IMG/VR virus record: IMGVR_UViG_2585427761_000003
Location: 1 to 7,944 of that record
Strand: one strand, 5' to 3'
Source of the DNA: a virus
Taxonomy: Duplodnaviria > Heunggongvirae > Uroviricota > Caudoviricetes
DNA: 7,944 bases
In this document: positions 5,316 to 6,925 of the stretch, piece by piece
Numbering within the stretch: position 1 is the first letter of the stretch
How the letters are laid out: each line of letters begins with the position of its first letter
The notes under the pieces: model-generated
Told to the model about the DNA's origin: nothing
The model's input: only the letters and a program-made list of their open reading frames with translations
Database searches by the model: none
Translations under genes and position numbers: made by a program

Positions 5316-5681
5316 ATGGCACTGACGAAAAAACAACGTGCAGAGCTGCGCATGAAGTTCGGCGGTCGCTGTGCTTATTGCGGCTGCGAACTTGGCGAAA
5401 AGTGGCATGCAGACCATGTAAAACCGGTCATTCGTTTTGATGGAAATATGCTTCACCAGGAACGTGACGATATATCCAATATGGTTCCGGCATGCCACCC
5501 ATGCAATCTGCACAAGCATTGCAGTAGTCTGGAAGATTATCGGCGAATTATCAGTGATGGTCGTCGTGAATTCCTTGCGTCCGGGAAAGGCAAAGCGCTG
5601 GTTCGTATGGGATTGGTTGAAATGAAATCTGACCCAGTTGTGTTCTGGTTTGAAAAATATCAAGAAGGGGCTACGGCATGA
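5316..5681 (+). CDS. HNH endonuclease (121 aa)
   Basis: ORF-track ORF 5226..5681 trimmed to ATG 5316, which has SD AAGGAAAG (5303-5310); the upstream extension is Cys/Trp-rich and unprotein-like. Classic HNH zinc-finger nuclease pattern: C-A-Y-C-G ... H-A-D-H-V-K-P ... [13 protein letters not shown]. Confidence 0.85.
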
Positions 5682-6022
5682 CGACTTTTACCAGAGAGCA
5701 GTTAATAGCTCACGCAGAGGAGACTATTGAAGCACAGAGACTGTGCATACCGGGCACAATCGACCATGACATCATCCGCACATATAAGATGGATATTGCT
5801 GTTCTGGAAATCGCACTGGTATCGCTGGCAGCAGAGCCAGCCGGTAAATTGCATGAATACAAACCAGTGGGATATCAGCGTCTGGTCGATGAGTTAACCA
5901 TGCTGGTAAAGCAGTTAACCTGGCAACTGAGGAAAGCGAAGCCAGACTGCAAATTACCGGATAAGGCGATGAGTTATCTGGAGCGGAACGGACTGATAAG
6001 CGTGGAGGATATTTTACGATGA
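5678..6022 (+). CDS. hypothetical protein (114 aa)
   Basis: ORF-track ORF. ATGA start/stop overlap with the HNH gene; SD-like AGGGG 7 nt upstream. No family recognised. Confidence 0.7.
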
Positions 6023-6102
6023 CCTGGCCTGAAGCATTCACAACGGTAGGAATTGCGATGGCGGTGGCGCTGGTGGTGTATTCGATTTGCCGCTGGGGAT
6101 AA
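6019..6102 (+). CDS. putative 27-aa hydrophobic peptide, translationally coupled to the upstream gene
   Basis: ATG 6019-6021 overlaps the upstream stop TGA (6020-6022). Encodes [27 protein letters not shown], stop TAA 6100-6102. One potential membrane helix. Last ORF before the terminator. Below the size cutoff of the ORF track, so support is purely positional and compositional. Confidence 0.3.
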
Positions 6103-6109
6103 ATCGCCG

Positions 6110-6150
6110 AAAAAAGATCCCGACATAAACATGAGCCGGGATCTTTGATT
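6110..6150. terminator. bidirectional rho-independent terminator between convergent operons
   Basis: 10-bp perfect stem AAAGATCCCG (6113-6122) / CGGGATCTTT (6137-6146) with a 14-nt loop. On the minus strand the hairpin is followed by TTTTTT; on the plus strand by TTTGATTTAT. Lies between the end of the rightward operon (6102) and the end of parE (6228). Confidence 0.7.
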
Positions 6151-6227
6151 TATATAGCCTACGAATCCGCCAGTAAGAGAGGGGGGCGGACGGTTAATTC
6201 TAACACCGGAATGATGTGGGTAAAAGT

Positions 6228-6527
6228 TTATAAGAAATCGGTTTCATAACTTTGCCCACCATGATAGATACCGACAATAAAGACTTTTCTGCTATCAACG
6301 GCAAAAGCAATAATCGTTCTGTGGCGGAAATGAGTTACCCGCATCCCCTGGCGAATATCATCGCGTTTATTGCCCCGATGCGGGAATGTAGAAAACCCAT
6401 CAAGATAATCAAGAAGCGCATTGGCATAATTGTCAGCAATGACGTTCCCTGCTTTCTCCGTTATATACCTGTGCAGGTTGATTATTTGTTGTTCGGCCTC
6501 AGGAGTAATGATGACTTCATATGTCAT
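6228..6527 (-). CDS. parE: ParE/RelE-superfamily type II toxin (99 aa)
   Basis: ORF-track ORF. Starts 5 nt after the stop of a ParD-like RHH antitoxin gene on the same strand. Size and sequence (MTYEVIITPEAEQQI...RVTHFRHRTIIAFAVDSRKVFIVGIYHGGQ) fit the ParE/RelE fold pattern. Confidence 0.85.
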   Translation of the reverse strand: MTYEVIITPEAEQQIINLHRYITEKAGNVIADNYANALLDYLDGFSTFPHRGNKRDDIRQGMRVTHFRHRTIIAFAVDSRKVFIVGIYHGGQSYETDFL

Positions 6528-6532
6528 GCAGA

Positions 6533-6790
6533 TTACTTCCCGGATCGAATCGCGGCGCGAACCTGTGAAATGGAGCGTCCGTTGTTTGGGTTTTCGCGGA
6601 TAGAATCAAGAGAGGGGGCGGCTGAATGCGTTAACCACGCTTCGATTGCTTTATCGCGCTCATTCAGTGCGCGAAGCCCTTCACGAATGACCTCGCTTTC
6701 TGAAGCATAGGCACCGGAAGCCACACGGGCGCGCACCATGTCAGCCATTTCGTTAGTTAATGTAATGCTGAATTGTTGGGTTGTACGCAT
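6533..6790 (-). CDS. parD: ParD-family (ribbon-helix-helix) antitoxin, 85 aa
   Basis: ORF-track ORF 6533..6853 trimmed to ATG 6790-6788, which has SD GAGG with 6-nt spacing; the 21-aa upstream extension is Ser/Gly-rich and unprotein-like. MRTTQQFSITLTNEMADMVRARVASGAYASESEVIREGLRALNERDKAIEAWL matches the ParD pattern (N-terminal beta-strand, G-x-Y-x-S-x-SEV-R-x-x-LR-x-L). Confidence 0.85.
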   Translation of the reverse strand: MRTTQQFSITLTNEMADMVRARVASGAYASESEVIREGLRALNERDKAIEAWLTHSAAPSLDSIRENPNNGRSISQVRAAIRSGK

Positions 6791-6925
6791 GGTAAACCTC
6801 ACGGAGTAGGATAGAACACCATTCGATGATAGCACGTTGCCTGTTGACGACAACAGAAATCAGAGACAATATTGCCGCACGCCAGCTTGAACAACTGGCA
6901 CCTGCTGCGCCAGCAGAGAAAACCG
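6791..6925. promoter_or_regulatory. putative parDE promoter/operator and divergent rightward promoter
   Basis: Minus strand: -35 TTGTCG (6853-6848), 16-nt spacer, -10 TATCAT (6831-6826). Inverted repeat CTGTTG-acga-CAACAG (6841-6856) overlaps this -35 and also a plus-strand TTGACG (6844-6849). A palindrome over the promoter fits RHH antitoxin autoregulation. Hexamer assignments are weak. Confidence 0.35.

What the first reader, a model, noticed from the sequence alone, without database searches (positions are those of the whole stretch)
6019..6150. Translationally coupled 27-aa hydrophobic peptide at the operon end
An ATG overlapping the upstream stop (ATGA) opens a 27-codon frame encoding a single predicted membrane helix ([27 protein letters not shown]), followed 8 nt later by a strong terminator. 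Such micro-proteins are missed by ORF finders and can act as membrane-active toxins or regulators.
Basis: seen in the sequence. Interest (0 to 1): 0.4.

Follow-up and report, generated by a model that had tools for sequence, protein, structure and literature searches.

The report
Conserved unannotated phage membrane microprotein gene
The 27-codon frame is a real, conserved, almost never annotated gene for a tiny single-helix membrane protein found in many Shiga-toxin and other lambdoid phages of E. coli, but its function is unknown.

Summary
ATG 6019 overlaps the TGA of the upstream 114-aa gene, GGAGG lies 10 nt upstream, and the frame encodes [28 protein letters not shown] 10-bp hairpin (6113-6146) starts 10 nt after the stop.

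A short hydrophobic ORF alone is not beyond chance: 5 of 61 ORFs of 20-40 aa in this window pass the same hydropathy threshold. Comparison makes the case. The 84-nt block occurs in 1634 of 5426 complete E. coli genomes, 94 phage records (933W, VT2-Sakai, BP-4795) and 226 plasmids. Its homology starts at the ATG and ends at the stop, while upstream genes (mostly DUF551 mosaics) and downstream elements differ.

58 of 60 distinct copies keep 27 codons, synonymous changes are in excess (p=4e-10), and indels come in sixes. 88 of 99 contexts keep GGAGG and 87 keep the stop/start overlap. More distant relatives of 23-40 aa share WPEAFxxVGxAxAxA.

No Pfam, NCBIfam, PHROG or PADLOC family matches, and RefSeq leaves it unannotated.

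Best reading: a translationally coupled single-pass inner-membrane microprotein. "Toxin" is untested. "Operon end" is only partly right, because the hairpin looks bidirectional and terminates the convergent parDE better. It is a new member of a known kind, of moderate interest.

The parts
5678..6022 (+). Upstream 114-aa early-region gene whose TGA overlaps the microprotein ATG. It has no Pfam or NCBIfam family. Its C-terminal module (..[15 protein letters not shown]) is one of at least three alternative C-termini that precede the microprotein gene in other phages.
6004..6008 (+). Shine-Dalgarno core GGAGG, 10 nt before the ATG, lying inside the last codons of the upstream gene.
   Evidence: 88 of 99 distinct contexts have GGAGG at a spacing of 7 or 10 nt.
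6019..6102 (+). Microprotein gene of 27 codons plus TAA, encoding [27 protein letters not shown]. Predicted transmembrane helix at about residues 6-24. Conserved core WPEAFxxVGxAxAxA, an aromatic residue near position 21, and Arg25-Trp26.
6113..6146 (.). 10-bp perfect hairpin with a 14-nt loop, flanked by A6 (6110-6115) on the 5' side and TTTGATTTAT on the 3' side. Candidate bidirectional intrinsic terminator between the + strand gene block and the convergent parDE unit.
   Evidence: One compensatory variant (L097).

Best explanation
Window 6019-6102 is a genuine protein-coding gene for a 27-aa single-pass inner-membrane microprotein.

Shown:
- The ORF is the unit of conservation. Homology begins at the ATG and ends at the stop, in phages whose flanking genes are unrelated.
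- Frame, length, start codon, GGAGG and the overlap with the upstream stop are all preserved.
- Substitutions are biased towards synonymous changes or changes compatible with a membrane helix.

Inferred:
- It is translated by coupling (termination-reinitiation, or direct Shine-Dalgarno binding) to the last gene of the variable DUF551/Ead-Ea22-type early gene block, so it is made during early phage transcription, roughly in step with that gene.
- It inserts after translation, because at 27 aa the chain is released before it leaves the ribosome tunnel.
- Its orientation is N-terminus out (Glu5) and C-terminus in (Arg25).
- It acts through close helix-helix packing on the conserved small-residue positions G11, A13, A15 and A17, either with a host or phage inner-membrane protein (a modulator, like other bacterial small membrane proteins) or with itself.

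The modulator-versus-self choice and the biological role are not resolved. I favour an accessory or modulator role over a killing toxin.
For: Distribution:
- blastn of 6010-6150 finds 3107 places in 1634 of 5426 complete E. coli genomes. Many matches begin exactly at the ATG and end at the stop, under differently named upstream genes.
- tblastn finds it in 94 phage records at 59-100% aa identity, including 933W, VT2-Sakai, Min27 and BP-4795.
- It is also in 226 plasmid records, 217 of them non-mobilizable and mostly about 95-100 kb. The two examined that carry an IncY replicon (L016, L017) are the basis for reading these as P1-like phage-plasmids.

Coding signature:
- 58 of 60 distinct 84-nt versions keep an open 27-codon frame, giving 34 distinct peptides. 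The two other + frames carry stops in all 58.
- pN/pS is 0.34 over the whole ORF and 0.45 over codons 7-23, which my search pattern did not constrain.
- On a minimum spanning tree, codons 7-23 show 65 synonymous and 53 non-synonymous single-nucleotide changes, against an expected synonymous fraction of 0.277 (binomial p=4e-10). 50 of the 53 non-synonymous changes are between residues compatible with a membrane helix.
- A scan that constrained only nt 1-32 sampled 120 viral contigs. The 12 that failed the strict pattern still encode 23-27 aa hydrophobic peptides in frame. There was no frameshift in codons 12-27, one 6-nt deletion, and one W26 to stop.
- Population length variants are in-frame 6-nt expansions giving 29-35 aa.

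Translation signals: of 99 distinct contexts, 78 have the ATGA overlap, 9 have TGATG or TAATG, and 88 have GGAGG at 7 or 10 nt.

Flanks differ:
- At least four classes of upstream C-terminus occur.
- Downstream lie hok/sok loci, a DUF4222 gene then xis/int, phage-plasmid genes, or several unrelated terminators.

More distant relatives: a profile search of 1.84 billion representative proteins gives only 55 hits, mostly 25-87 aa, sharing WPEAFxxVGxAxAxA, an aromatic residue and a basic C-terminus. Salmonella phage SPN3UB has a 23-aa relative overlapping the stop of its Eaa gene, upstream of ninB.

Hydropathy is consistent with one transmembrane helix across the family.
Against: - There is no direct evidence of translation or of the protein. 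The peptide is absent from the held supplements of two EHEC ribosome-profiling studies and one Enterobacteriaceae smORF census. Prophage early genes are repressed in the conditions such studies normally use (my own knowledge).
- My strict search pattern fixed nt 1-17 and 70-78 and the spacing between them, so conservation of the N- and C-terminal motifs and of the length is partly built into that sample. The unconstrained codons and the looser scan answer this only in part.
- The antisense frame whose wobble positions coincide with the sense frame shows a similar pN/pS (0.36), so the ratio alone cannot assign the strand. That frame has no start codon across 6042-6140 in the window, and its only ORF (5772-6041) lies mainly inside the variable upstream gene.
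- A few homologues are disrupted (L005, L010, P0081-P0085), so the gene is dispensable in at least some prophages.
- The Hessa-scale insertion energy is only about neutral (+0.2 kcal/mol).
- The modulator mechanism is pure inference. No partner is identified.
Confidence: 0.7

Rival explanations
1. Membrane-perturbing peptide. The microprotein self-assembles in the inner membrane and makes it leaky or depolarised, like a type I toxin or a pinholin. That would serve host shut-off, exclusion of other phages or abortive infection, and could underlie the envelope leakiness reported for cloned phage 'ehly' determinants.
For: - It is small and very hydrophobic, with small residues conserved at positions 11, 13, 15 and 17. 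These fall on two helix faces, as would suit packing against two neighbours in an oligomer.
- It is the same size as known type I toxins such as ShoB, DinQ and TisB (my own knowledge).
- One 47-aa long-form homologue gives a weak holin PHROG match (phrog_785, E=0.019).
- The title of Oscarsson et al. 2002, cited in PMC7093339, says that the ehly1 and ehly2 determinants of O26:H- temperate phages cause release of ClyA. The Stx2 II record labels the genes immediately upstream of this ORF as similar to the phiC3208 enterohemolysin and its associated protein.
- Ludwig et al. 2008, cited in PMC11438861, reports release of latent ClyA by a phage putative holin.
Against: - No antisense RNA, promoter or Rfam family overlaps the ORF.
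- Translation is not repressed. It has a strong exposed Shine-Dalgarno sequence and is coupled to the upstream gene, unlike type I toxins.
- It is not in a lysis cassette.
- There is no PADLOC match, and the PHROG matches are inconsistent between family members.
- In-frame 2-10 residue expansions of the helix occur, which fits poorly with a precisely registered pore.
- Whether the ehly clones contained this ORF is unknown, because the paper is not held.
Confidence: 0.2
2. Mainly a cis-acting element. The short frame matters because ribosomes translate it, not because of the peptide it makes. Translation could keep ribosomes on the mRNA up to the end of the gene block, preventing Rho-dependent polarity or shielding the 3' end, or could modulate formation of the hairpin 10 nt downstream. 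Alternatively the conserved 84 nt could serve as a recombination 'linker' between mosaic modules.
For: - A ribosome stopped at TAA 6100-6102 would cover the 5' arm of the hairpin (6113-6122) (inference).
- In several unrelated contexts a different terminator follows the stop within about 5-15 nt.
- Mosaic joints fall exactly at the ORF borders.
- TGGCCTGA (nt 7-14) is invariant in all copies inspected, including the Pro wobble base.
Against: - The amino-acid sequence itself is constrained: synonymous changes are in excess, replacements stay hydrophobic, and indels come in threes or sixes. A frame that mattered only for being translated, or a DNA linker, would not need this.
- Downstream sequences are unrelated between contexts, and most are not terminators.
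- Distant relatives keep the peptide motif while their nucleotide sequences diverge.
Confidence: 0.07
3. Not a functional gene. It is a chance hydrophobic ORF carried along inside a conserved piece of phage DNA.
For: - Hydrophobic short ORFs are common by chance (5 of 61 in this window).
- RefSeq does not call it.
- Some copies are broken.
Against: All the coding signatures listed under the best explanation, plus the fact that conservation stops at the ORF borders.
Confidence: 0.03

Closest known systems
Bacterial small inner-membrane proteins of 50 aa or fewer found by ribosome profiling and tagging (such as KdpF, AcrZ, MgtS, CydX, YohP)
   Same: Size (27 aa), one predicted transmembrane helix, missed by annotation pipelines, own start codon and Shine-Dalgarno sequence, purifying selection.
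   Different: No sequence relationship. The best hit, KdpF TIGR02115, scores 14.7 bits against a cut-off of 26.85 over 12 hydrophobic residues. This one is phage-borne, coupled to a hypervariable early gene, and has no known partner.
Type I toxin-antitoxin toxins (Hok/Gef, TisB, ShoB, DinQ, Ibs, Ldr)
   Same: A short hydrophobic peptide. In 933W-type phages it sits about 150 nt upstream of a hokW/sokW locus.
   Different: No antisense RNA or promoter. It has a strong unsequestered Shine-Dalgarno sequence and translational coupling inside an operon. There is no homology, and the neighbouring hok locus is a separate module that this window lacks.
[quoted passage not shown]
   Same: Same neighbourhood in many phages, downstream of ea22-like genes and upstream of xis/int. 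Early expression and poorly understood accessory functions (PMC4195576, PMC7093339).
   Different: Not homologous. Lambda 26-36 kb contains no WP[ED]A-type frame. None of these products matched the WP[ED]A motif; that they are soluble proteins rests on my own knowledge. The published exo-xis work does not mention this ORF.
Leader-peptide attenuators (trpL- or tnaC-type)
   Same: A very short ORF ending about 10 nt before a hairpin.
   Different: The peptide is conserved across contexts that have no hairpin or a different downstream sequence. No alternative antiterminator structure is evident: the fold of 5990-6110 has z +0.78.

Membership tests
Small single-pass membrane protein (generic class, 50 aa or fewer) | Short ORF with its own start codon and ribosome-binding site | tested here: met
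   ATG 6019 with GGAGG 10 nt upstream. GGAGG at 7 or 10 nt in 88 of 99 contexts.
Small single-pass membrane protein (generic class, 50 aa or fewer) | One hydrophobic segment long enough to span the membrane | tested here: met
   Kyte-Doolittle 19-residue mean of 2.11; Hessa-scale sum about +0.2 kcal/mol for residues 6-24. Similar values in homologues.
Small single-pass membrane protein (generic class, 50 aa or fewer) | Evolutionary signature of protein coding | tested here: met
   pN/pS 0.34-0.45. Synonymous excess p=4e-10. Indels in multiples of 3. 58 of 60 distinct copies intact.
Small single-pass membrane protein (generic class, 50 aa or fewer) | Protein detected and located in the membrane | not testable with these tools
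   No hit in the held supplements of PMC5597208, PMC4765031 or PMC11188072.
KdpF (TIGR02115) | Score at or above the curated cut-off | tested here: not met
   14.7 bits against a cut-off of 26.85, residues 10-21 only.
Type I toxin-antitoxin toxin | Antisense or divergent small RNA antitoxin with its own promoter overlapping the toxin mRNA | tested here: not met
   No promoter-like site within 6019-6150 on either strand. No Rfam family. Downstream and antisense flanks are not conserved between contexts.
Type I toxin-antitoxin toxin | Translation kept off by a sequestered Shine-Dalgarno sequence or a leader ORF | tested here: not met
   Strong Shine-Dalgarno sequence and ATGA coupling to an upstream gene. 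The fold of 5990-6110 is no more stable than shuffled sequence (z +0.78).
Type I toxin-antitoxin toxin | Toxic when expressed | not testable with these tools
   Needs an expression experiment.
Holin / pinholin | Encoded in the late lysis cassette next to an endolysin | tested here: not met
   It lies in the early region, after replication genes here and in the exo-xis region elsewhere. Only one inconsistent weak PHROG holin match.
Leader-peptide attenuator | The peptide sequence is free to vary, and function depends on a specific downstream alternative RNA structure | tested here: not met
   The peptide is conserved while downstream sequences are unrelated.
PHROG 4612 (unknown function) | Consistent significant profile match across family members | tested here: not met
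   E=0.005-0.03 for 3 of 11 members scanned and nothing for the rest.
DUF551 (PF04448), the label PGAP gives to partial copies | Match to the DUF551 profile | tested here: not met
   The peptide gives no DUF551 match. DUF551 lies in the upstream protein and ends before the overlapping stop.

The most novel reading that the evidence does not exclude
The microprotein is the active principle of the old phage-borne 'enterohemolysin' (ehly1/ehly2) determinants. On this reading it is an early-region peptide, coupled to Ead/Ea22/DUF551 genes, that loosens the E. coli envelope enough to release cytoplasmic or periplasmic proteins such as ClyA. It would then be a widespread envelope-permeabilising factor of Stx phages and phage-plasmids. 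A related reading uses the rare natural fusions (P0094, P0100): the peptide may be the detachable membrane anchor that recruits the variable DUF551/Ea22-type proteins to the inner membrane.
Probability: 0.1. Interest if true: 0.6.

Novelty: new member of a known kind. Interest (0 to 1): 0.4.

Why it matters
- About 30% of complete E. coli genomes carry this gene, as do the reference Stx phages 933W and VT2-Sakai, yet it is missing from RefSeq annotation and from Pfam, NCBIfam, PHROGs and PADLOC.
- It marks the constant 3' end of one of the most mosaic and least understood phage gene blocks (Ead/Ea22/DUF551). Published work reports that members of this block influence the lysis-lysogeny decision of Stx phages (PMC7093339).
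- A defined 27-aa product with a clear motif is cheap to tag, delete and express. It gives a concrete handle on that region and possibly on the unexplained ClyA-release phenotype of ehly clones.
- It also shows that PGAP mislabels partial copies as 'DUF551 domain-containing protein, partial'.

Tried and rejected
- Tool length limits: the search for homologous proteins and the search for related loci refuse a 27-aa query. I worked around this with a 40-codon in-frame DNA reference, exact look-up, tblastn and degenerate DNA patterns.
- Cluster look-up: it placed the peptide in a DUF551 cluster. Reading the members showed this is an artefact of one partial, upstream-extended ORF call (P0012), not a real fusion.
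- Frameshift fusion to the upstream protein: rejected. There is no slippery site, and the upstream sequences differ between contexts.
- Coding on the opposite strand: the 52-aa ORF 5974-6132 has pN/pS of about 1.06 and stops in 18 of 58 copies. The other open antisense frame has no start codon over the region.
- Rfam over the whole window: only two chance-level hits elsewhere.
- PADLOC: nothing for the peptide, the upstream protein, ParE or ParD.
- Literature: searches by peptide substrings found nothing relevant. The supplements of three small-ORF studies do not contain the peptide, and one preprint has no held supplements. Oscarsson 2002 is not held.
- Species-representative genome scan: only Escherichia and Shigella, plus two contamination-like mini-contigs. 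The strict pattern cannot see diverged relatives, so this understates the family's breadth.
- Not done: I did not check E. coli K-12 prophages directly. None of the 70 protein clusters carries a K-12 gene name.

Full report
**1. What is in the window**

The window is the early-rightward region of a Rac/Stx-type lambdoid prophage. On the + strand it carries YdaS- and YdaT-like genes, a replication initiator candidate, a DnaC/IstB-like loader, DUF977, DUF4406 and an HNH endonuclease. It is 99.7% identical over 5600-6300 to Stx2a phage ArgO145 and to prophages of O26, O103 and related strains.

At 6019 an ATG overlaps the TGA of a 114-aa ORF (5678-6022). It opens a 27-codon frame ending at TAA 6100-6102 that encodes [27 protein letters not shown]. 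GGAGG lies at 6004-6008. No other start codon exists upstream in this frame.

A perfect 10-bp inverted repeat, 6113-6122 / 6137-6146, with a 14-nt loop follows. Beyond it lie the convergent parE (6228-6527) and parD (6533-6853) genes on the minus strand.

**2. Is it more than chance?**

Not on its own. 5 of 61 ORFs of 20-40 aa in this window reach the same hydropathy threshold. The case rests on comparison with other sequences.

blastn of 6010-6150 finds 3107 places in 1634 of 5426 complete E. coli genomes. Many alignments start exactly at the ATG (query position 10) and stop at the stop codon (query position 94). The upstream genes under those matches carry different annotations: DUF551, dATP/dGTP pyrophosphohydrolase domain protein, methyltransferase, or hypothetical.

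tblastn finds the peptide at 59-100% identity in 94 phage records, including 933W, VT2-Sakai, Min27, Stx2 II and BP-4795. It also finds 226 plasmids, 217 of them non-mobilizable and mostly about 95-100 kb. Two of those examined are IncY, which is the basis for reading them as P1-like phage-plasmids.

Reading 20 loci side by side shows the following:
- The flanks are unrelated.
- The ATG(A), the 26-27 codons and the stop are kept.
- GGAGG precedes the ATG.

**3. Coding signature**

I collected 158 loci in three ways: from BLAST hits, from a strict degenerate pattern (nt 1-17 and 70-78 fixed), and from a looser pattern (nt 1-32 only).

Results:
- 58 of 60 distinct 84-nt versions are intact, giving 34 distinct peptides. 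The other two + frames carry stops in all 58.
- pN/pS is 0.34 overall and 0.45 in codons 7-23, which no pattern constrained.
- On a minimum spanning tree those codons show 65 synonymous against 53 non-synonymous single changes, where 27.7% synonymous is expected (p=4e-10). 50 of the 53 replacements stay among residues compatible with a membrane helix.
- In the looser scan of 120 contigs, the 12 that failed the strict pattern still encode 23-27 aa hydrophobic peptides in frame. One has a 6-nt deletion and one a W26 to stop change. None has a frameshift in codons 12-27.
- Protein-database variants show in-frame 6-nt (Ala-Met / Ala-Val) expansions to 29-35 aa, a few stop-loss extensions and a few frameshifts.

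Caveats:
- The strict pattern builds in part of the motif and length conservation.
- One antisense frame shares its wobble positions with the sense frame and so shows a similar pN/pS (0.36). It has no start codon across the region, and its only ORF lies inside the variable upstream gene.
- The codon-aligned antisense ORF 5974-6132 has pN/pS of about 1 and frequent stops.

**4. Translation signals and neighbours**

Among 99 distinct contexts, 78 have the ATGA overlap with an upstream ORF of at least 40 codons, 9 have TGATG or TAATG, and 88 have GGAGG at a spacing of 7 or 10 nt.

The upstream proteins are highly mosaic early-region proteins:
- About 60 of 99 end in a full or truncated DUF551 domain (PF04448). 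One of the eight representatives scanned also carries Ead_Ea22 (PF13935).
- About 22 end in the window-type module ..YL(E/K)[12 protein letters not shown].
- 8 end in the 933W p77-type module.

Downstream, in 158 instances, I found:
- 43 hok/sok loci
- 43 cases of a DUF4222 gene followed by xis/int
- 17 cases of phage-plasmid genes
- about 20 with a small hypothetical gene followed by a Hok/Gef gene (L017 type)
- at least 22 with one of three unrelated hairpin terminators; the window type accounts for only 7-8 of these

The small ORF is therefore the constant 3' cap of a variable gene block. It sits in the exo-xis region in many phages, and after the replication genes here and in Salmonella phage SPN3UB. 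The lambda exo-xis region lacks it.

**5. The family**

A profile built from 30 members was searched against 1.84 billion representative proteins. It returned only 55 hits, mostly 25-87 aa.

The more distant hits keep W-P-E-A-F-x-x-[VI]-G-x-A-x-A-x-A, an aromatic residue about ten positions later, and a basic residue near the C-terminus. With an acidic residue near the N-terminus and a basic one near the C-terminus, the positive-inside rule predicts N-out/C-in (inference).

Two rare clusters, seen on 1-3 contigs, fuse the peptide in frame to Ea22-like coiled-coil proteins. This is a weak hint of a functional link to the upstream protein.

No Pfam, NCBIfam, PHROG or PADLOC family matches consistently. 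The names given by source databases are only 'hypothetical protein', 'bacteriophage protein', 'prophage protein' or, wrongly, 'DUF551 domain-containing protein, partial'. RefSeq does not annotate it in the loci I read.

**6. The hairpin**

It folds at -16 kcal/mol on the + strand, where the tail is GAUUUAU, and at -21 kcal/mol on the - strand, where U6 follows. One relative (L097) carries a compensatory double change in the stem.

I read it as a bidirectional terminator between convergent units that serves parDE at least as well as the + strand block. The + strand genes further downstream in the near-identical O26 prophage (DUF968, RusA, DUF1133) imply read-through or re-initiation. 'Operon end' is therefore only partly right.

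**7. Mechanism**

Shown: this is a conserved, coupled coding unit with a membrane-helix composition.

Inferred: early expression in step with the upstream gene, post-translational insertion, and action by helix packing through the small-residue positions 11, 13, 15 and 17.

I favour a modulator or accessory role over a killing toxin, for three reasons:
- The features that define type I toxins are absent.
- The helix tolerates 2-10 residue expansions.
- The gene sits unrepressed inside an operon.

The toxin or permeabiliser reading stays open at about 0.2. It gains some colour from the literature. Genes just upstream of this ORF in Stx2 II are annotated as similar to the phiC3208 'enterohemolysin' sequences. 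By the title of Oscarsson et al. 2002, cited in PMC7093339, those ehly determinants cause release of ClyA rather than encoding a hemolysin. I could not read that paper, so whether the clones contained the ORF is unknown.

**8. Verdict**

This is a real, widespread, essentially unannotated phage microprotein gene. It is a new member of a known kind (small single-pass membrane proteins), and its function is unknown. Interest is moderate at 0.4. The finding is solid and cheap to test, and it sits in medically relevant Stx phages, but it is not conceptually surprising.

Noticed in passing
window 6228-6853 (- strand): A ParE toxin (6228-6527) and ParD antitoxin (6533-6853) module is inserted convergently right after the hairpin, inside the phage early region (Pfam). 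PADLOC gives no hit.
   Followed up: partly
window 6224-6197 (- strand): A sigma-70-like site (TTTACC, 16-nt spacer, TG-extended TAGAAT) lies between the parE stop and the hairpin. It could give an RNA of about 80 nt ending at the hairpin plus U6. The number of such sites in the region is no higher than in shuffled sequence.
   Followed up: no
L097 (IMG/VR), hairpin homologous to window 6113-6146: The stem carries a compensatory double change (GAGCCCGG/CCGGGCTC against GATCCCG/CGGGATC), which supports a functional hairpin.
   Followed up: partly
window 6052-6069 region; proteins P0063, P0065, P0067, P0069, P0071-P0073; locus L153: The GCGATG/GCGGTG hexanucleotide repeat inside the membrane helix expands or contracts in frame, giving versions of 25 to 35 aa. 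This acts as a microsatellite-like length polymorphism of a membrane helix.
   Followed up: partly
proteins P0094 (143 aa) and P0100 (206 aa): Rare natural in-frame fusions of the peptide to the C-terminus of Ea22-like coiled-coil proteins. They are seen on only 1-3 assembled contigs.
   Followed up: partly
L005 (ON470583 vB_EcoS-689R5) and L010 (PQ600364 phiSTEC1589-Stx1c): Disrupted copies. L005 has a 1-nt deletion in codon 2-3 and is annotated there as a 36-aa ORF in the wrong frame. L010 has W3 changed to TAG.
   Followed up: yes
L022 (Xanthomonas pisi DSM 18956, 431-bp contig), L025 (Acinetobacter idrijaensis MII, 369-bp contig), PP818812 'Actinobacillus phage vB_Apl-pPE4': E. coli-phage-type copies of the ORF appear in assemblies or records of unrelated hosts. 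The two mini-contigs look like contamination, and the Actinobacillus phage record is 97.8% identical to E. coli phage DNA over 180 nt.
   Followed up: no
window 5678-6022: The upstream 114-aa protein has no Pfam or NCBIfam family. Its last 50 or so residues recur as the C-terminus of several different PHROGs (660, 924, 8171, 30109), which shows module shuffling inside genes.
   Followed up: partly
NCBI protein records P0012, P0018, P0019, P0028, P0037, P0038 and others: PGAP names partial 25-39 aa copies of the microprotein 'DUF551 domain-containing protein, partial', although DUF551 lies in the preceding gene.
   Followed up: yes
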